This document shows, piece by piece, positions 8,355 to 22,689 of a stretch of 64,000 bases of DNA (position 1 is its first letter; each line of letters opens with the position of its first letter). The stretch lies in contig DUMW01000031.1 in the NCBI GenBank assembly GCA_012839765.1, positions 11,829 through 75,828 on the forward strand, in the 5' to 3' direction. The notes below the pieces were generated by a model. It was not told the DNA's origin. It ran no database searches and saw nothing but the letters and a program-made list of their open reading frames with translations. Origin of the DNA: Bacillota bacterium. GTDB taxonomy: Bacteria; Bacillota; Limnochordia; DUMW01. Made by a program: the position numbers and the translations under genes.

Positions 8355-8396
8355 TTCTTGCGGGAGTAACTGTATTTACTGGAATGGAGGGTGTAT

Positions 8397-9281
8397 ATGA
8401 GTGTCGAATTAGAAAGCCGTGCCAATCGGAACTATACCGAGGCGGAGGACGCGCTAATCTTAGAATCCTGGTGGAATCTGAAACAAAGGGATGAACTGGT
8501 GCGGCGTCTGGGTAGGAGCAAAGCCGCGGTGGCCCAGCGTTTTTATGCCCTACTTAAGGAGTATCAGATTGATCCTAAGATATATAGAAAACAGATGAAA
8601 CAGAGCAAAAATCGGCGGGAAGTGCTATCTCAGCTTTTGGGCAAGCCCCTACCGGAGTTCACCTGGACCAATGAACTGGAGATGAATCTTTGGCGGTGGG
8701 CCAAACAGGGATTGGATTGGGAGACTATCAGCAGCCGACTGCCAGGAACCACGGCCCAAATGTGCCAGGAGCGTTATGAGGAGCTCATGAAGGAACATGC
8801 ACCGGAGGCTGGCCTCCCGGCGGTACAAGAAGAATACAGTAGTGAGGATTTAATCACCGCCCTGAAGGAATTTCCCAGCCGGGCCTTTGCCCTTGATCAA
8901 CGGATCAAAGTGTTAGAAGCAGAAATGGCCACCTTGCAAGGTAGTGTCACGGAATTGTTGGGGGAGTTTACCCGGGGGTTGACCAATGTCTGTAATCTGT
9001 TTCAGAACCGCGGGCGGGTGCTGAATGAGCTGGAGCGTCTGAAGGAAGAGAATCAGCGGCTGCGGGAGAAAGTGATGGCCCTGGAGGCGAAGCACAACGA
9101 AGAAAAGCAGGAGTTGCGCCGGGTCTACAGCGAGATCGACTTTTGGCTGGGTGAGTTTATGCAGCTGAGAAAGCCCGAGAAGGTGGCTAGCCTCGGTGAG
9201 ATCATGCCGCGGCTTAAGGCATCCTATGAACGCTTTGGAGCCCTCCTGGATATGCAAGAGGAGCGGGCCATGGGATATTAG
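8397..9281 (+). CDS. tandem Myb/SANT-like repeat protein with coiled coil (RsfA-like regulator)
   Basis: YTEAEDALI...LGRSKAAVAQRF and WTNELEMNL...W..I...LPGTTAQMCQERY repeats; heptad-rich C-terminal half; GGAGG RBS before ATG 8397. Confidence 0.65.
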   Translation: MSVELESRANRNYTEAEDALILESWWNLKQRDELVRRLGRSKAAVAQRFYALLKEYQIDPKIYRKQMKQSKNRREVLSQLLGKPLPEFTWTNELEMNLWRWAKQGLDWETISSRLPGTTAQMCQERYEELMKEHAPEAGLPAVQEEYSSEDLITALKEFPSRAFALDQRIKVLEAEMATLQGSVTELLGEFTRGLTNVCNLFQNRGRVLNELERLKEENQRLREKVMALEAKHNEEKQELRRVYSEIDFWLGEFMQLRKPEKVASLGEIMPRLKASYERFGALLDMQEERAMGY

Positions 9282-9491: not shown

Positions 9492-10667
9492 TTAGGCCAG
9501 GGGTTCGGTGGTATAAAAATGGCCGTTTTTGTGGATTACCCCGTAGATCCGATACGCGATTTCCGCACAAAGGACCTTGCCCCCTTCGATGAAGAGACGA
9601 GGTATATGGGGAGGGATGGAGGTGAACCGCTGATAGATGGCCACTGGTTCCTGGATTTGCGCGGATACCCCAGGGGGAATCCGGATGGTGGCCATGCCCA
9701 TGGACGTCCGGCCCAGGAAGTGTGTGGGTTGTCCCTGGATGCGCACTAGTTGTCTTTCTTTGTGCAGGAGCTTCCGGCCCAGGGCCCCGAGGGAACTTTG
9801 AATATCCCCCGGCGGATCCAGCAAGAGTCCATCTCCATAGCCCAAAGGGATGGTGCCGATCTGCAGTGGGGCTGGCGCCCGGTAGGTGCTACCGTAGCCG
9901 AGGGTTTCGCCTTTGGCCAGCTCCTTCACTAAGACAAGATAGGTCTTTAGACACCAGGCCGTCTCCGTGGGTAAAGGGGCACACTGGCCGTAGAGGGCGT
10001 TGCCGAGGCGGCAAAGGTCTAACCTGCTTTCCGGCACTAGCACCGCGGCGGCACTGTTGGCCGCGTGGACCCAGGTGAAGGTGAAGCCATGTTTGTCTAA
10101 TTCCTCTACCGTCTTCAAGAAGCGGTCCAGCTGCCTTTTGGTTTGGGGGATGTTATGACTGGTGGGGAAGTGGGTGTAAATCCCTTCCCAAAGCAGACGC
10201 CTTTTCCTATCCAGGGCGCTCACCTGGCGGAGGAAAGCCAAGGCCTCCTCGGGTTTAATGCCACTTCGCCCCATGCCGATATCGATCTTTAGATGCACCC
10301 GGATCTTCCTTTTGTACTTCTCCCCTGCCCGAACTAGGGCCTCGGCCATGGGCAGGGTGCACAAAGTTTGGGTAAGGTCATACAAGGCCACCTGCTCCCC
10401 TTGGAAAGGGAAGCCGGGATGGAAGATGAGAATGGGACCGCGGATGCCACGACGCCGCAAGGTCCGGGCCTCTTCCAGGCTGTTTACTGCCAGGCCCCGG
10501 GCACCTAGGCGGAGAAAGAGCCGACTGGTTTGCACTAACCCGTGGCCATAGGCGTTGTTTTTCACCACGGCAAAGAAATCCGTTGGTATAGCCCTTCTTA
10601 CCTTGCTGAGGTTTTCTTTGAGTTTACCCGTATCGATTTCCACCCAAACCGGGGGTAAAGGATCCAT
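9492..10667 (-). CDS. alr: alanine racemase-family PLP enzyme (atypical)
   Basis: AVVKNNAYGHG (PLP Lys), KIDIGMGRSG, YTHF, HAANSA, GYG catalytic Tyr, IPLGYGDG; C-terminal motifs divergent. Confidence 0.85.
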   Translation of the reverse strand: MDPLPPVWVEIDTGKLKENLSKVRRAIPTDFFAVVKNNAYGHGLVQTSRLFLRLGARGLAVNSLEEARTLRRRGIRGPILIFHPGFPFQGEQVALYDLTQTLCTLPMAEALVRAGEKYKRKIRVHLKIDIGMGRSGIKPEEALAFLRQVSALDRKRRLLWEGIYTHFPTSHNIPQTKRQLDRFLKTVEELDKHGFTFTWVHAANSAAAVLVPESRLDLCRLGNALYGQCAPLPTETAWCLKTYLVLVKELAKGETLGYGSTYRAPAPLQIGTIPLGYGDGLLLDPPGDIQSSLGALGRKLLHKERQLVRIQGQPTHFLGRTSMGMATIRIPPGVSAQIQEPVAIYQRFTSIPPHIPRLFIEGGKVLCAEIAYRIYGVIHKNGHFYTTEPLA

Positions 10668-11746
10668 TAGCCACGACTCCCTAGAAGTTTCAGTTTTTCT
10701 TGGAGGGGGCCTTTAAGGAGGATCATTTGCCTTAGCAAGGGTTCACCTTTGTTATATAAACTCCAAAGAAGTTTGTTGTAGGGCAGATCCAGCTCCCCGA
10801 TGTATTCCACCAAGGTGGGGTTAAACCCCTCCTTGAACCGATACAGCCCATACAAGGGATGGTTGGGATCTAAATTGCCGCTTACCCCGCGAAAATCATA
10901 AACCTGGCACCCCCGTTGCTTGGCGTAGCGGATCATGGCCCACTGGATGGCGTAGTTGGGCTGCAGGTTCCTAAGCTCGTTGCTCGAGGCGCCGTATAGA
11001 TACCAGGCTTGGCTGCCAAAGACAAACAAGAGTGTGGCGGACAGTAATTGCCCTTGGTAGTAGGCCAAGAATAGCCGGGCCATGTTCCGGGGGACAAACA
11101 GATCCCACATCCGGGAAAAGTAACCGTAGTTGCGCACGGCAAATCCGTCCCGCTGGCAGGTTTCCAGAAGTAACGAATAGAATTTGGACAGATCCCTTTT
11201 GTCCGCGGAGCAGCGGACTTGGACTCCCTTCCGCTGGGCATAGCGGATGTTGTAACGGGTTTTGGACTTCATCTCCGCCAAAAGCTGTTCTTCGCTCTTG
11301 TCGATATTCAAGCGGAAGACGAATTTGGGCTGGACGTTCTCGAAGGCCTTGCCCTTGTTCACCGAGCGAAAACCGGCCTTGAGCAGATGTTTGTGGAACT
11401 GGAGGTTTTCCTTGGGGATGGGCGGATCGATCTTGAGGAAGATGGCCCGGTGTTCTTTGGCAATGGGGCGGATTTCCCCGAGCAGTGGTTCCAGATGCTT
11501 TGGATCCGCCAGGACGGGTCCGTGGGGTGCGTAGAAAAAACTCCGGCCCAAGGGGATCCCTCGTTTGAGAATGGAGACGGCCCCAAGGATCTCGTCCTTG
11601 TCCTCCAAGATTAAGCGCAGAGGTTCCCATCCGGTATAGGCCTTCAATTCACCCCACTCGTAGGATTGTAGAAAACTACCCTGTTGCCTTGCCAGAAAGC
11701 CATTAAACAGATCCCGCTCATTGTTATGTATTAGCCGCAGGTGCAT
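10667..11746 (-). CDS. FemX/FemAB/MurM-family aminoacyl-tRNA-dependent peptidoglycan bridge ligase
   Basis: FLQSYEWGELK, FYAPHGPV, IFLKIDP, KSKTRYNIRYAQRKGV, WYLYGAS, YDFRG, LYRFKEGF; stop overlaps the alr start (TAATG). Confidence 0.9.
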   Translation of the reverse strand: MHLRLIHNNERDLFNGFLARQQGSFLQSYEWGELKAYTGWEPLRLILEDKDEILGAVSILKRGIPLGRSFFYAPHGPVLADPKHLEPLLGEIRPIAKEHRAIFLKIDPPIPKENLQFHKHLLKAGFRSVNKGKAFENVQPKFVFRLNIDKSEEQLLAEMKSKTRYNIRYAQRKGVQVRCSADKRDLSKFYSLLLETCQRDGFAVRNYGYFSRMWDLFVPRNMARLFLAYYQGQLLSATLLFVFGSQAWYLYGASSNELRNLQPNYAIQWAMIRYAKQRGCQVYDFRGVSGNLDPNHPLYGLYRFKEGFNPTLVEYIGELDLPYNKLLWSLYNKGEPLLRQMILLKGPLQEKLKLLGSRG

Positions 11747-11860
11747 GCCGTCGCCCCCCTTGTGCTAATCAGTTTATGCAGTAACCGTGGGGATGTTCAT
11801 CGGCATAAAGCTACGTCCTGGGCAATATATTTTACAAAAAACATTAGCAGGTGATGCGGG

Positions 11861-13018
11861 GTGGCAAAAGAGGGACGTGCGGTTGTTTGGTGGGTGAGTT
11901 TGCTTTCGGTCTTGTCATTGCTTTCCGGTGTGACCTGCGCCGAGGAACTCCGCCTTGCCGCAGAGGCGGTGGCCTTGGTGGATGGGCAGACCGGCGTACT
12001 ACTTTACGGTAAAAACGCCTTTACCCGGCGGTCCATTGCCAGCCTCACCAAAGTGATGACCATCTTTCTGACCGCAGAAAACATCCAAGCGGGGAAGATC
12101 AAAATGGATGACGTGGTGGTGGCGGACGCCAAGGCCCAGTCCCTGGAGGGGACGGAACTGAAGGTGAAGCAGGGCCAGTCCTTCACTGTGGAAGAGCTTC
12201 TTTATGCTGCCGCCCTGATTTCCGCCAACGACGCTGCATATATGCTGGCGGTGCACCAAGCGGGTTCCGAGGCTGCCTTTGCCCAGCAGATGACGCAGCG
12301 AGCCAGGGAACTGGGCCTGGAGGATACCAACTTCACCGATGCCACGGGTCTTAACCCCAGCTGGGAAGGAAACTACTCCACCGCCTATGACTTGGCCCAA
12401 CTCTTTCGGGTGGCCATCCAAAATCCCATCTTCGCCCGGGTGGTGGGCACCGCCCGGTACCGAATCAATTCTCTGGGTCTGGAGATTACCAACTCCAATC
12501 CCCTCCTCGGGGAGTATCCGGGGAATGAGGGGGGGAAGACCGGTTTCACCACCCCCGCGGGGCACAGCCTCGTTACCTCGGCCACCATTGAGGGCTGGAG
12601 GCTGGTGGCGGTAGTCCTGGGAGGACCAAACCGGGAGGCCCGGCAGCAAGATACCAAAGAGCTTCTGAATTATGGGTTTGAAAACCTCCAGTTGGTGATC
12701 CGCAAAGGAGAAGTGGTGGGGACCGGTCCCCTTTCTGGTGGAGCCCGCAGCAAAGTGCAGCTGGTGGCCGGATCCGACTTCAAGGCCCATGTCCCACCAG
12801 GCTATGACGGACCACCCTTGGAAAGAAGGTTGGAGCTGGATTCCCCACCACCGGAGGCCCCCGTGGACCCGGGCCAGCCCTTCGGCCGCCTTGTCTTTTA
12901 CCGGGGGGAGGAAGAAGTGGGTTCCATCCCTGCGGTGGCTAAGCACGGGGTAGGGACGGCAAACGTGGTGACTAGAGTAATCAGTTGGTTTTTGGGCCTT
13001 TTCGGCCGCAGACCCTAG
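11861..13018 (+). CDS. D-alanyl-D-alanine carboxypeptidase (peptidase S11, DacF/DacA-like)
   Basis: SxxK (ASLTK), SxN (SAN), KTG (GKTGFT), C-terminal PBP5 domain, signal peptide. Confidence 0.92.
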   Translation: MAKEGRAVVWWVSLLSVLSLLSGVTCAEELRLAAEAVALVDGQTGVLLYGKNAFTRRSIASLTKVMTIFLTAENIQAGKIKMDDVVVADAKAQSLEGTELKVKQGQSFTVEELLYAAALISANDAAYMLAVHQAGSEAAFAQQMTQRARELGLEDTNFTDATGLNPSWEGNYSTAYDLAQLFRVAIQNPIFARVVGTARYRINSLGLEITNSNPLLGEYPGNEGGKTGFTTPAGHSLVTSATIEGWRLVAVVLGGPNREARQQDTKELLNYGFENLQLVIRKGEVVGTGPLSGGARSKVQLVAGSDFKAHVPPGYDGPPLERRLELDSPPPEAPVDPGQPFGRLVFYRGEEEVGSIPAVAKHGVGTANVVTRVISWFLGLFGRRP

Positions 13019-13033
13019 CGGGGAGGATTAGCC

Positions 13034-14986
13034 TTGTATTACGATGCCCTGTTGGTCAGCAGAAAACGAATTCTGTGGCTCTTTTGTGCTGTGGCTGTGT
13101 TCTTCGTGGTGGTGGTGCTGCGCCTGTTTTATGTGCAGGTTTTGCAGTACCAGTTCCTCCAGGGACAGGGACTGAAACAACGATTACGACCCATTCCTGT
13201 GGATGCAAAGCGGGGGACCATCTATGACCGTAACGGCTATGTATTGGCCACCACGATTAGTGCCTCGTCGGTCTACGCTATCCCAGTGGAGATCACAGAA
13301 CCGGAGAAGACTGCTCAGCTGTTGGCGGAAGTGCTGGACTTGGACTATGACTTTGTCTTGAAGCGGGTCACGGCCAACAGTGCCGCCGAGTGGATCAAAA
13401 AGCGGGTCACCGATGCGGAGGTGACCCTGGTGCGGAGTTTAGATCTGCCGGGCATTGGCATCGTGGAAAATCCCGTGCGGTATTACCCCGATGGGACCAT
13501 TGCCCCCCAGGTATTGGGGATCGTGGGCATCGATAACCAGGGCCTGGAGGGAATCGAGTTCCAGTACGACGCGATCTTGCGGGGGCGTCCGGGGGCTGTG
13601 TTGGTGGAACGGGATTCCATGGGCCGGGAGATTCCGCACGGTGTCCACACCTATGTTAAACCGGTGGACGGCTATGATATTTACCTGACCATCGATCGGA
13701 ACATCCAACTGATGGCCCAAAGGGAGATTGCCCGGGTTACCCAGGAAACCGGCTCGAAGCAGGGGTTGATCCTCGTGATGGATCCTGGAACCGGGGAGAT
13801 CCTGGCTACGGCCATTTATCCCTCTTTTGACGCGGCCAACTATGCGGACTATCCGGACAAATACCGGCGGAATGTGGCCATCACCGACAATTACGAGCCC
13901 GGTTCCACCTTCAAGGCGGTTACCGCCGCGGCGGCCTTAGACGCAGGGATCACCACCCTCCAAACCCGCTATTTCGACCCCGGTTTTATCCGCGTTTCCG
14001 GGTGGACGATCAAATGTTGGCACAGCGCCGGACACGGCTCCCAAAACTTCATTGAGACCCTGGAAAACTCCTGTAACCCCGTGTATGCCCGCCTGGGCAT
14101 GGAATTGGCGGAACTGAAGGAAGGACGCGGTTTTTATGAATACATCCGTGACTTTGGTTTCGGTGAGCCCTTGGGCGTAGACTTTCCCGGTGAGGCGGTG
14201 GGGATTTTGTATCCCCCCAGTCCCGATGTGCCCGCGGTCACCTGGGCCAACATCGGTTTTGGGCAGAGTATCAGCGTGACCCCCCTGCAGCTGTTGAATG
14301 CCATGAATGCCATCGCCAATGGCGGTAACCTGATGCGACCCTACTATGTAATGAGGATCGTGGATAAGGACGGGAATGTCATCGAGGAGAGGGAACCGGA
14401 GGTCATTCGTCAGCCGGTCTCGCGGGAGGCCGCGGAGCAAGCGGCCCTGATGCTCCGTTCCACTGTGGCCAATGGCACCGCCAGCGGTGCCGACATCCCT
14501 GGCTACCGGGTGGGGGGCAAGACGGGTACAGCCCAGGTGGCCGAAGGGGGAGTGTACAGCCGCTCCAAGGTGATTGCCTCCTTCTTTGGGATCGCACCGA
14601 TGGATGATCCCCAATTTGCGGCCCTTATTGTCCTTTGGGAGCCTACCGGTGCTTACTACGGCGGTGTGATTGCGGCACCGGCCTTTGGAATCTTCGCCCT
14701 GCCGATGCTGCGGTACTTGAACGTGGAACAGCGGCTGGAGGATAACGGTGAGGAAAGAACGGTGCAAGTGCCAAAGGTTGTCGGGCTACCATTGGCGGAG
14801 GCGGAACGATTGATCACCCAACAGGGACTGACCTACGGAATCATGGGGATCGGACCCGTGGTTACCTATCAGACTCCCTTACCCAACGTCTATGTGGCCC
14901 AAGGGGCTAAGGTCATCCTCTACACAGATCCCACCGAGCTGTTGGAAACGGGTCTGGTGGTACGGGATGGGCCTACACTCCATTGA
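13034..14986 (+). CDS. class B penicillin-binding transpeptidase (SpoVD/FtsI-like) with PASTA domain
   Basis: N-terminal TM, RGTIYDRNG, EPGSTFK, SCN, KTGTAQ, C-terminal VPKVVGLPLAEA PASTA; GGGAGG RBS before TTG. Confidence 0.92.
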   Translation: MYYDALLVSRKRILWLFCAVAVFFVVVVLRLFYVQVLQYQFLQGQGLKQRLRPIPVDAKRGTIYDRNGYVLATTISASSVYAIPVEITEPEKTAQLLAEVLDLDYDFVLKRVTANSAAEWIKKRVTDAEVTLVRSLDLPGIGIVENPVRYYPDGTIAPQVLGIVGIDNQGLEGIEFQYDAILRGRPGAVLVERDSMGREIPHGVHTYVKPVDGYDIYLTIDRNIQLMAQREIARVTQETGSKQGLILVMDPGTGEILATAIYPSFDAANYADYPDKYRRNVAITDNYEPGSTFKAVTAAAALDAGITTLQTRYFDPGFIRVSGWTIKCWHSAGHGSQNFIETLENSCNPVYARLGMELAELKEGRGFYEYIRDFGFGEPLGVDFPGEAVGILYPPSPDVPAVTWANIGFGQSISVTPLQLLNAMNAIANGGNLMRPYYVMRIVDKDGNVIEEREPEVIRQPVSREAAEQAALMLRSTVANGTASGADIPGYRVGGKTGTAQVAEGGVYSRSKVIASFFGIAPMDDPQFAALIVLWEPTGAYYGGVIAAPAFGIFALPMLRYLNVEQRLEDNGEERTVQVPKVVGLPLAEAERLITQQGLTYGIMGIGPVVTYQTPLPNVYVAQGAKVILYTDPTELLETGLVVRDGPTLH

Positions 14987-22617: not shown

Positions 22618-22689
22618 TGGAGCGGGCGAGAGGACTTGCACCTCTACCTTCCGGTGGGACCGGACGTCATACTCTTTGACCACGCCCGC
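22618..22689 (-). tRNA. atypical tRNA-Gly(CCC)-like gene, 72 nt, with encoded CCA
   Basis: GCGGGCG-TG-GTCA-AAGAGTA-TGAC-G-TCCGG-TCCCA-CCGGA-AGGT-AGAGG-TGCAAGT-CCTCT-CGCCCGC-T-CCA: four paired stems, G1-C72/C2-G71/G3-C70/U73 and CCC; non-canonical T-loop, D-loop and anticodon arm. Confidence 0.85.

What the first reader, a model, noticed from the sequence alone, without database searches (positions are those of the whole stretch)
9492..10667. Alanine racemase homolog with an altered substrate-side C-terminal domain
Seen: the PLP Lys (AVVKNNAYGHG) and catalytic Tyr (LGYG) are intact. The usual GRxxMD motif reads GRTSMGM (Asp replaced by Gly), about 25 residues (DPPGDIQSSLGALGRKLLHKERQ) are inserted after GYGDG, and the INYE-type Tyr354 segment is not recognisable (RFTSIPPHIPR). 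Established: changes around Tyr354 accompany altered specificity in the VanT serine racemase. Inference: the enzyme may racemise a non-Ala amino acid for the coupled Fem ligase pathway or the spore cortex.
Basis: partly seen in the sequence, partly recalled or inferred. Interest (0 to 1): 0.55.

Follow-up and report, generated by a model that had tools for sequence, protein, structure and literature searches.

The report
FemX-coupled remodelled alanine-racemase paralog
This gene is a second, rebuilt copy of alanine racemase that is almost always encoded right behind a cell-wall branch-adding enzyme (FemX) in many bacteria, which points to an undescribed stereochemical step in building branched peptidoglycan.

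Summary
The 391-aa protein has the alanine-racemase fold and keeps the PLP Lys, the second catalytic Tyr, and the Arg136, His166 and Arg219 equivalents. Asp313 is Gly, Arg290 is Leu, and the Tyr354 segment is deleted. A basic helix is inserted at the entryway.

It is not a one-off. It belongs to a near-monophyletic family with at least 1156 cluster representatives, no solved structure, and only the label "alanine racemase". In 401 sampled genomes, 129 carry the variant, 127 of those also have FemAB, and at least 112 of 130 variant genes lie directly behind femAB. The pair also occurs in Armatimonadota and an Actinomycetota MAG. This genome has a canonical alr elsewhere (contig C86) and a single femAB.

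Best reading (0.65): an active PLP racemase/epimerase dedicated to the FemX branch pathway, acting on something other or larger than free alanine. The substrate is not established. The spore-cortex idea is not general.

The scan has noted similar femAB-racemase pairs on other DNA before (e1-1351560, e1-4872324, e1-5269984).

The parts
9492..10667 (-). alr-like gene (P0001, 391 aa), a member of the FemX-coupled variant Alr family
   Evidence: ORF. PF01168 196 bits plus a partial PF00842 match. TIGR00492 238 bits, covering only model positions 3-334 of 369. AF2 pLDDT 95.5. Foldseek TM 0.79-0.83 to solved Alr structures.
10560..10562 (-). codon of Lys36, the PLP-binding Lys (equivalent to Lys39 of G. 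stearothermophilus Alr)
   Evidence: Aligned to the Lys of AVVKANAYGHG in 1bd0/1sft. Invariant in 111/111 family members.
9894..9896 (-). codon of Tyr258, the second catalytic base (equivalent to Tyr265')
   Evidence: HMMER alignment to 1bd0 with an offset of +7. Conserved in 109/111 members.
9753..9827 (-). family-specific insertion (residues 281-305) directly after the entryway Tyr277 (equivalent to Tyr284'); includes Leu283 at the Arg290' position
   Evidence: Alignments A1 and A3. Helix 292-302 with pLDDT 72-76. Across the family it is basic (median K+R 7, D+E 2, net +5) and amphipathic (muH 0.66 vs 0.48 for shuffled residues).
9696..9698 (-). codon of Gly324, at the position of Asp313' in the GRxxMD motif
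   Evidence: Across the family: Gln 83, Gly 11, Asn 6, Asp 3 of 111.
9600..9650 (-). short segment (residues 340-356) that replaces the canonical ~45-residue stretch holding Ile352/Tyr354; carries the family-conserved Arg347
   Evidence: Gap in canonical-versus-variant alignment A1. Arg347 in 91/111 members; the next position is Arg/Lys in 85/111 (Phe in P0001).
9495..9599 (-). C-terminal extension (residues 357-391) predicted as four extra beta strands
   Evidence: DSSP on the AF2 model. Its length varies within the family.
10667..11746 (-). FemAB-family (FemX-type, no coiled-coil arm) aminoacyl-tRNA-dependent peptidoglycan branch transferase; the only FemAB gene in this genome
   Evidence: PF02388 215 bits. 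Best PDB matches are S. aureus FemX 6snr (267 bits) and W. viridescens FemX (180 bits). Single copy in G000.
10665..10681 (-). gene junction: GGGAG (10681-10677), 9 nt, then TAATG, so the femAB stop (10669-10667) and the alr start (10667-10665) share one base
   Evidence: Read directly from the sequence.
11747..11860 (.). 114-bp divergent intergenic region between femAB-alr and the dacF-like/spoVD-like genes; presumed promoter region
   Evidence: ORF map. No sigma-70 consensus site was found there.
11861..14986 (+). lineage-specific context: a D,D-carboxypeptidase (Peptidase_S11) and a SpoVD-like class B PBP
   Evidence: Pfam and NCBIfam. The same arrangement occurs in L005-L007 and L009 but not in L008, L020 or L021.

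Best explanation
P0001 is not the housekeeping alanine racemase. It belongs to a distinct, near-monophyletic subfamily of alanine-racemase-fold PLP enzymes that is encoded immediately downstream of a FemX-type aminoacyl-tRNA-dependent peptidoglycan branch transferase. Here the two genes are translationally coupled.

Shown: the fold, the complete two-base racemase machinery (PLP Lys, the Tyr265' equivalent, and the Arg136, His166 and Arg219 equivalents), the rebuilt C-terminal domain, the conserved pairing with FemAB, and the presence of a canonical alr elsewhere in the genome.

Inferred: it is an active PLP racemase/epimerase that serves the FemX branch pathway of a DAP-type cell wall, and its substrate is other or larger than free L/D-alanine. 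The reasons are as follows. The residues that close the alanine pocket and entryway (Tyr354 segment, Asp313', Arg290') are gone. They are replaced by a basic amphipathic helix and new Arg residues, which suggests a bulky and/or anionic substrate.

My split of the odds within this reading:
- About 35%: it epimerises a centre on a pathway-bound substrate. Candidates are the free distal alpha-amino-acid centre of the DAP residue of the precursor before FemX acts, the N-terminal residue that FemX adds, or the aminoacyl-tRNA donor.
- About 30%: it racemises a free non-alanine amino acid used in or around the branch.
For: Fold and catalytic residues.

Rebuilt substrate side, conserved in 111 family members: the Asp313 position is Q83/G11/N6/D3; the Arg290 position is L/V/M; the Tyr354 segment is deleted; new signatures are LYGQxP and Arg-Arg; the insertion is basic and amphipathic.

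Family size and coherence: 1156 representatives at E<=1e-10 with the C-domain profile. A tree built only from the shared N-terminal 280 residues needs 2 label changes, against 41 for shuffled labels.

No solved structure has this C-domain, and NCBIfam lumps the family under alr.

Coupling to FemAB: the TAATG overlap. The pair is found in L005-L009, L020 and L021 with different flanks. At least 112 of 130 variant genes have FemAB directly upstream. At genome level the counts are 127 both, 2 variant only, 38 FemAB only, 234 neither. 58 of 80 FemAB-clade loci have the alr-like ORF directly downstream. No third gene is conserved.

A canonical alr coexists with the variant in this genome and in G220, G379 and G116.

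MurE has the DNPR motif (DAP type, by established knowledge) in this genome and in 30 of 30 pair-carrying genomes from 30 families.
Against: The protein still passes the alanine-racemase equivalog cut-off (238 vs 168 bits), and every residue needed for alanine racemisation chemistry is present, so alanine activity cannot be excluded.

From established work on G. stearothermophilus Alr, changing Tyr354 broadens specificity but does not abolish alanine turnover.

Known FemX enzymes use L-aminoacyl- or glycyl-tRNA and need no racemase.

The FemAB partner is closest to a glycyl transferase, and a tRNA-Gly-like gene lies 11 kb away. Glycine has no stereocentre.

One pair-carrying genome (G226, 96% complete) shows no clear canonical alr.

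FemAB exists without the variant in DAP-type genomes, so the partner is not obligatory for FemAB function.

No member of this fold is known to act on a peptide- or tRNA-bound residue.
Confidence: 0.65

Rival explanations
1. It is an ordinary alanine racemase isozyme, a second alr like B. subtilis alr/yncD or E. coli alr/dadX. It is co-expressed with FemX only to balance the L-Ala and D-Ala pools when branched precursors are made. The C-terminal changes would be neutral or affect only kinetics or regulation.
For: It passes TIGR00492. All catalytic residues are intact. Genome G226 may rely on it alone. Many bacteria have two alanine racemases (established knowledge).
Against: The rebuilt entryway is conserved across a large old family with its own new conserved residues, so it is under selection and not drifting. 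The gene depends on FemAB almost absolutely (127 of 129 genomes), which a pool-balancing isozyme would not require. A canonical alr is kept alongside it.
Confidence: 0.2
2. It is a catalytically silent or regulatory partner, such as a scaffold, a substrate-binding subunit or a PLP-dependent sensor, that assists FemX without doing racemase chemistry.
For: The genes are tightly coupled. The racemase-like partner diverges faster (30-35% identity) than FemAB (44-72%).
Against: The full catalytic set is conserved at 97-100% over the whole family, which is not expected of a pseudoenzyme.
Confidence: 0.07
3. The pair has nothing to do with peptidoglycan. The FemAB-family enzyme would be a tRNA-dependent peptide-bond former of secondary metabolism (as in the valanimycin, pacidamycin or dehydrophos pathways), and the racemase would supply or modify its amino acid.
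For: FemAB-fold enzymes do occur in natural-product pathways (established knowledge). PDB hits include 'aminoacyl-tRNA-dependent peptide synthase' 9wqy at 37 bits.
Against: The partner matches bona fide FemX enzymes far better (267 and 180 bits). The flanks are cell-wall or housekeeping genes and never biosynthetic clusters. The pair is present in about a third of sampled genomes as a single-copy core-like unit.
Confidence: 0.05

Closest known systems
Alanine racemase Alr, EC 5.1.1.1 (G. stearothermophilus 1sft/1bd0; T. tengcongensis 4y2w; C. difficile 4lus)
   Same: Fold-type III PLP barrel plus a beta domain (TM 0.79-0.83). PLP Lys, Tyr265', Arg136, His166, Arg219, Ser204, Tyr284', Arg309' and Met312' are all kept.
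   Different: Asp313' is Gly (Gln in most of the family). Arg290' is hydrophobic. The segment with Ile352/Tyr354 is deleted. There is a 17-25-residue basic helix after Tyr284', a new Arg-Arg motif and extra C-terminal strands. The gene is always a second copy and is tied to femAB.
VanT / VanTG serine racemase (4ecl)
   Same: An Alr-fold paralogue with an altered Tyr354 position that works for a dedicated cell-wall pathway.
   Different: VanT has a point substitution at Tyr354, not a deletion. It has no insertion. It is linked to van ligase genes and often to a membrane domain. P0001 scores 185 bits against the 460-bit cut-off; TM 0.77.
Broad-spectrum, lysine and histidine racemases of the Alr fold (BsrV 7agz, 4dyj, 4dza, 5zl6)
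   Same: Alr-fold enzymes whose widened entry channel admits long side chains.
   Different: They keep the canonical C-domain topology. Bsr enzymes are periplasmic and have signal peptides. None is paired with FemAB. Sequence scores are 83-96 bits over the N-domain only.
MurD2/MurL pathway of Xanthomonas (PMC8788868, PMC5808125)
   Same: It is a precedent for making a D-centre of peptidoglycan after the L-residue has been ligated to the nucleotide precursor, with the ligase and epimerase genes paired.
   Different: MurL is not a PLP enzyme and acts on the C-terminal Glu of UDP-MurNAc-L-Ala-L-Glu. There is no relation in sequence or fold. This is an analogy of logic only.
RacD + Aslfm/AslA D-aspartate branch pathway of enterococci and lactococci (recalled, not tested here)
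   Same: A racemase gene is paired with the enzyme that adds the side branch to the stem peptide.
   Different: That racemase is PLP-independent (Asp/Glu racemase fold). The ligase is an ATP-grasp enzyme that uses free D-Asp, not a tRNA-dependent FemX.

Membership tests
Alanine racemase (TIGR00492 / PF01168 + PF00842) | Fold-type III PLP barrel followed by a beta-strand C-domain | tested here: met
   PF01168 196 bits and PF00842 55 bits. AF2 model with TM 0.79-0.83 to 1sft, 4y2w and 4lus.
Alanine racemase (TIGR00492 / PF01168 + PF00842) | PLP-binding Lys and second catalytic base Tyr265', plus Arg136, His166 and Arg219 | tested here: met
   K36, Y258, R134, H166 and R220, aligned to 1bd0. Conserved at 97-100% in the family.
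Alanine racemase (TIGR00492 / PF01168 + PF00842) | Curated equivalog score over the whole model | tested here: inconclusive
   238 bits exceeds the 168-bit cut-off, but the match covers only model positions 3-334 of 369. Most relatives stop at about position 286.
Alanine racemase (TIGR00492 / PF01168 + PF00842) | GRxxMD motif (Met312'-Asp313') | tested here: not met
   The motif reads GRTSMGM. Met is kept and Asp is replaced by Gly. Across the family: Q83/G11/N6/D3.
Alanine racemase (TIGR00492 / PF01168 + PF00842) | Conserved entryway: Tyr354 and Ile352 (inner and middle layer), Arg290' | tested here: not met
   The segment is deleted in alignment with canonical Alr sequences. The Arg290 position is Leu/Val/Met. 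Tyr284' and Arg309' are kept.
Alanine racemase (TIGR00492 / PF01168 + PF00842) | Alanine racemase activity | not testable with these tools
   Needs an enzyme assay or complementation of a D-Ala auxotroph.
VanT serine racemase | Curated model score; Tyr354 replaced by Asn; van-cluster context | tested here: not met
   NF033131 185 vs 460 bits, NF033132 111 vs 900, NF033133 76 vs 750. No van genes are nearby.
Broad-spectrum racemase (Bsr) subfamily | Curated model score; secreted, with a signal peptide | tested here: not met
   NF009879 107 vs 434 bits. The N-terminus MDPLPPVWVEID runs straight into the barrel with no signal peptide.
FemX-coupled variant Alr family (defined in this report) | 43-56 residues between GYxDG and G[RK]xxM; non-Asp after the Met; Tyr354 segment absent; short ...R(R)...PRxY tail | tested here: met
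   P0001 has 43 residues start-to-start (38 between the motifs), M-G, and the tail QRFTSIPPHIPRLF. It scores 238 bits on profile A2, which it helped to build, while relatives score 78-264 bits.
FemX-coupled variant Alr family (defined in this report) | Encoded directly downstream of a FemAB-family gene on the same strand | tested here: met
   1-nt overlap here. At least 112 of 130 in the phylum sample. 58 of 80 FemAB-clade loci.
FemX-coupled variant Alr family (defined in this report) | Clusters apart from canonical Alr when the defining C-terminal columns are left out | tested here: met
   N-terminal-only tree: 2 label changes vs 40.9 for shuffled labels, 0 of 500 shuffles as low. A single origin is not excluded by well-supported branches.

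The most novel reading that the evidence does not exclude
The variant Alr would be the first PLP-dependent epimerase that works on a peptidoglycan-pathway intermediate and not on a free amino acid. One version: it inverts the free distal centre of the DAP residue of the precursor (meso to LL) so that FemX can branch it, which would explain how LL-DAP-Gly (A3-gamma-type) walls are made. Another version: it inverts the N-terminal L-residue that FemX has just added, or the aminoacyl-tRNA donor, giving a D-configured acceptor end. The basic amphipathic helix and the new Arg residues would bind the nucleotide- or lipid-linked muropeptide or the tRNA.
Probability: 0.3. Interest if true: 0.85.

Novelty: new variant of a known kind. 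Interest (0 to 1): 0.62.

Why it matters
About a third of the sampled genomes of this large, mostly anaerobic Gram-positive phylum carry a conserved femAB plus alr-like unit whose chemistry is unknown. So do members of Armatimonadota and one Actinomycetota MAG. Databases label the gene plain "alanine racemase". All carriers examined have DAP-type MurE, yet tRNA-dependent branching of DAP-type peptidoglycan is barely studied.

If the enzyme sets a stereocentre in the branch or on DAP, it would define a new step of cell-wall synthesis. It would also explain a classical chemotype and correct thousands of annotations. The pair occurs in culturable genera (relatives of Desulfitobacterium, Thermincola, Syntrophomonas), so the question can be tested directly.

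Tried and rejected
1. Complex prediction of P0001 with its FemAB partner, with alignments for both: no verdict (score 0.00). This is neither for nor against binding.

2. Word-based homologue search restricted to the C-terminal 130 residues found only the protein itself and P0003. The exhaustive profile search was needed to see the family.

3. The search for related loci with the diverse C-domain alignment A4 failed for lack of a conserved stretch. The FemAB alignment A5 worked instead.

4. Ten literature searches found no paper on a femAB-alr pair. They also found no text to verify my recollection that Desulfitobacterium, Dehalobacter and Desulfosporosinus have LL-DAP-Gly walls. That link is therefore only a lead. 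Among 41 sampled genomes of the Paradesulfitobacterium family, 37 carry the variant.

5. DAP-route check in the window's own genome: DapF is present and a Ddh-like gene is present. This does not discriminate between hypotheses.

6. Test of the prediction 'FemAB without the variant means a non-DAP wall': 7 of 23 FemAB-only genomes have a DNPA, DNPK or DNPE MurE, against 0 of 30 pair carriers, but 16 show only DNPR. This is inconclusive. The background is 24 of 29 DNPR.

7. Sporulation-specific role: rejected as a general explanation because flanks differ between lineages and the pair occurs in Armatimonadota.

8. ESM Atlas look-up of the C-terminal part: only 'alanine racemase' clusters, so nothing was added.

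9. A sigma-70 promoter and terminator scan around the pair found nothing above chance.

Full report
**1. What is at the coordinates**

Window 9492..10667 is one ORF on the minus strand, 391 aa (P0001).
- Pfam finds Ala_racemase_N (196 bits) and a partial Ala_racemase_C match (profile positions 4-92 of 127).
- NCBIfam's alr equivalog TIGR00492 scores 238 bits (cut-off 168) but covers only model positions 3-334 of 369. All VanT, DadX and Bsr models fall far below their cut-offs.
- HMMER alignment to G. stearothermophilus Alr (1bd0/1sft) runs from residue 7 to 282 and then stops. It fixes the equivalences Lys36=Lys39, Tyr258=Tyr265', Tyr277=Tyr284' and Leu283=Arg290'.

**2. The altered C-terminal domain is real**

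I aligned P0001 with canonical Alr proteins, including this genome's own. This gives three results.
- Gly324 sits at the Asp313' position.
- There are 38 residues between GYGDG and GRTSM, against 21 in the canonical paralogue.
- A gap of about 25-30 residues replaces the '...TIxYE...' segment that carries Ile352 and Tyr354.

An AlphaFold2 model built on a 111-sequence family alignment is confident: pLDDT 95.5, pTM 0.92. The insertion is less confident (pLDDT 72-76) and contains a helix at 292-302. Four extra strands lie at 357-389. Foldseek gives TM 0.79-0.83 to solved alanine racemases and 0.77 to VanTG and to lysine racemase.

**3. It is a second copy**

The genome (2.56 Mb, 96% complete, Limnochordia-like by the names of the nearest database hits) has four Ala_racemase_N genes. 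The best-scoring one, on contig C86 (L001:1066-2202, minus strand, 378 aa), has canonical GNICMDQ and SYEV...RVPR motifs and lies next to an Nnr-type gene. P0001 aligns to it only over the first 280 residues, at 38% identity.

**4. It is a family, not an oddity**

P0003 (58% identical), P0004 and P0005 (35%) share the insertion, the M-G motif and the deletion.

A profile of their C-terminal domains, searched exhaustively against 1.84 billion cluster representatives, found 1156 proteins at E<=1e-10. The top 150 almost all have:
- 43-56 residues between GYxDG and G[RK]xxM,
- a non-Asp residue after the Met,
- a short ...RR...PRVY tail without TIxYE.

In 111 full-length members:
- The catalytic set is conserved: Lys 111, Tyr265' 109, Arg136 108, His166 110, Arg219 111, Ser204 107.
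- The Asp313 position is Gln 83, Gly 11, Asn 6, Asp 3.
- The Arg290 position is Leu, Val or Met.
- New conserved positions appear: Gln in LYGQxP (79/111), Arg347 (91/111), and Arg/Lys at 348 (85/111).
- The insertion is basic (median K+R 7, D+E 2, net +5) and amphipathic (maximal helical moment 0.66 against 0.48 for shuffled residues; 96% of members exceed their own shuffle).

P0001 belongs to a minority M-G clade with a shorter insertion.

A maximum-likelihood tree built only from the shared N-terminal 280 residues needs 2 changes of the variant/canonical label, against 41 for shuffled labels. Well-supported branches allow a single origin.

No PDB entry has this C-domain: the best match is 63 bits in two fragments. 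NCBIfam labels all tested members alr.

**5. The conserved partner**

The upstream gene (10667..11746, minus strand) is a FemAB-family protein (215 bits) and the only one in the genome. It is closest to S. aureus FemX (6snr, 267 bits) and W. viridescens FemX (180 bits), and it lacks the coiled-coil arm. The junction reads GGGAG-N9-TAATG, so the stop and start codons share one base.

The same femAB then alr-like order is found as follows:
- With P0003, P0004 and P0005, including one locus with entirely different flanks.
- In an Armatimonadota genome and in another Bacillota MAG.
- In 401 genomes sampled from the window's phylum: 130 variant-type matches in 129 genomes, FemAB in 165 genomes. At least 112 of the 130 have FemAB directly upstream on the same strand. 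This is a lower bound, because FemAB rows were truncated and several exceptions lie at contig ends.
- At genome level: 127 both, 2 variant only, 38 FemAB only, 234 neither. Relatedness inflates any P-value, but the asymmetry is clear. The variant needs FemAB, and the reverse does not hold.

I then started from the FemAB side and took 80 loci from species-representative genomes. These came from Syntrophomonadaceae, Peptococcaceae, Desulfitobacteriia including cultured Paradesulfitobacterium ferrireducens, Thermincola, gut Clostridia, Armatimonadota, Abditibacteriota, Saganbacteria, Margulisiibacteriota and one Actinomycetota MAG. In 58 of them the alr-like ORF lies directly downstream.

No third gene is conserved. 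The flanks are pyrG/argS/fbaA in about 19 loci, a class A PBP plus DUF1189/FtsH in gut Clostridia, and DacF/SpoVD in Limnochordia. A canonical alr coexists with the variant in G220, G379 and G116. G226 shows none.

**6. What it most likely does**

The chemistry-competent core argues for an active PLP racemase/epimerase. Four points argue that it is not simply making D-Ala:
- the loss of the three elements that close the alanine pocket and entryway;
- a gain of positive charge at the same place;
- the retention of a canonical alr;
- the near-absolute dependence on FemAB.

MurE has the DNPR motif here and in 30 of 30 carriers from 30 families. By established knowledge this means DAP-type stems, so this FemX clade acts on DAP.

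I consider three substrate classes.

(a) A pathway-bound centre. One candidate is the free distal centre of peptide-bound DAP, which offers exactly the free amine and carboxylate that the retained Arg136 and Met312 would bind. Others are the N-terminal residue added by FemX, or the aminoacyl-tRNA. This class explains the coupling, the gene order and the basic helix. It has no precedent in this fold. The MurD2/MurL pathway is only a logical precedent (PMC8788868, PMC5808125).

(b) A free non-alanine amino acid. This fits everything known about the fold, but known FemX enzymes do not use D-amino acids.

(c) Alanine itself.

A test of one prediction of (a), that FemAB without the partner should go with non-DAP walls, was inconclusive. 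7 of 23 FemAB-only genomes have DNPA, DNPK or DNPE MurE paralogues, some adjacent to femAB, but 16 show only DNPR.

My recollection that Desulfitobacteriia have LL-DAP-Gly walls could not be verified in the paper library. The variant is present in 37 of 41 genomes of that family.

**7. Comparison and novelty**

The protein is a member of the Alr superfamily by fold and catalytic residues. It fails three defining substrate-side features of alanine racemase proper. It is not a VanT and not a Bsr. I file it as a new variant of a known kind: a FemX-coupled Alr subfamily with a rebuilt C-terminal domain.

No description was found in the searched literature. The scan itself has noted femAB-racemase pairs or remodelled Alr paralogues on other DNA (e1-1351560, e1-4872324, e1-5269984). 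I did not test those notes.

Noticed in passing
window 22618-22689 (-): ARAGORN calls a tRNA-Gly(ccc) with the anticodon at position 32, i.e. an unusual anticodon arm, about 11 kb from femAB. No tRNA lies near the pair in L005, L008 or L009.
   Followed up: partly
L005:5724-6853 (+) and own genome G000:C103:9240-9934: In the closest relative, the alr-like gene is followed by two Gate-domain genes that look like spmA/spmB. This gives a SpoVD-DacF <> femAB-alr-spmAB block. In the window's genome, small Gate-domain ORFs of matching size (163 and 166 aa) lie on another contig.
   Followed up: partly
G241:C90:43434-45871; G113:C1:730-6046; G089:C70:1441-4025; G231:C38:3937-6520; G129:C445:3396-7714; G104:C110:36053-38261: In genomes whose FemAB gene (or second FemAB copy) is not followed by the variant alr, that FemAB gene often sits next to a second MurE-like ligase. 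Where read, the ligase motif is DNPA or DNPK and not DNPR. This may be a separate 'alternative MurE + FemAB' module.
   Followed up: partly
window 8391-9281 (+): A 296-aa ORF convergent with the alr-like gene has only weak Myb-like (20.6 bits, below cut-off) and coiled-coil matches. A 291-293-aa gene with no Pfam hit on record occupies the equivalent place in L005 and L006.
   Followed up: no
L001:1066-3649 (own genome contig C86): The canonical alr overlaps the end of a 488-aa ORF that I took, from its sequence alone and without a family scan, to be a bifunctional Nnr-type (NAD(P)HX epimerase/dehydratase) gene. A glycosyltransferase-like ORF follows. This is the housekeeping alr context.
   Followed up: no
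G405 (genome of L087, Saganbacteria): This genome has a FemAB of the same clade but no variant alr at E<=1e-15 anywhere in the 2.0-Mb assembly. Several Armatimonadota, Abditibacteriota and Margulisiibacteriota loci also lack it directly downstream.
   Followed up: partly
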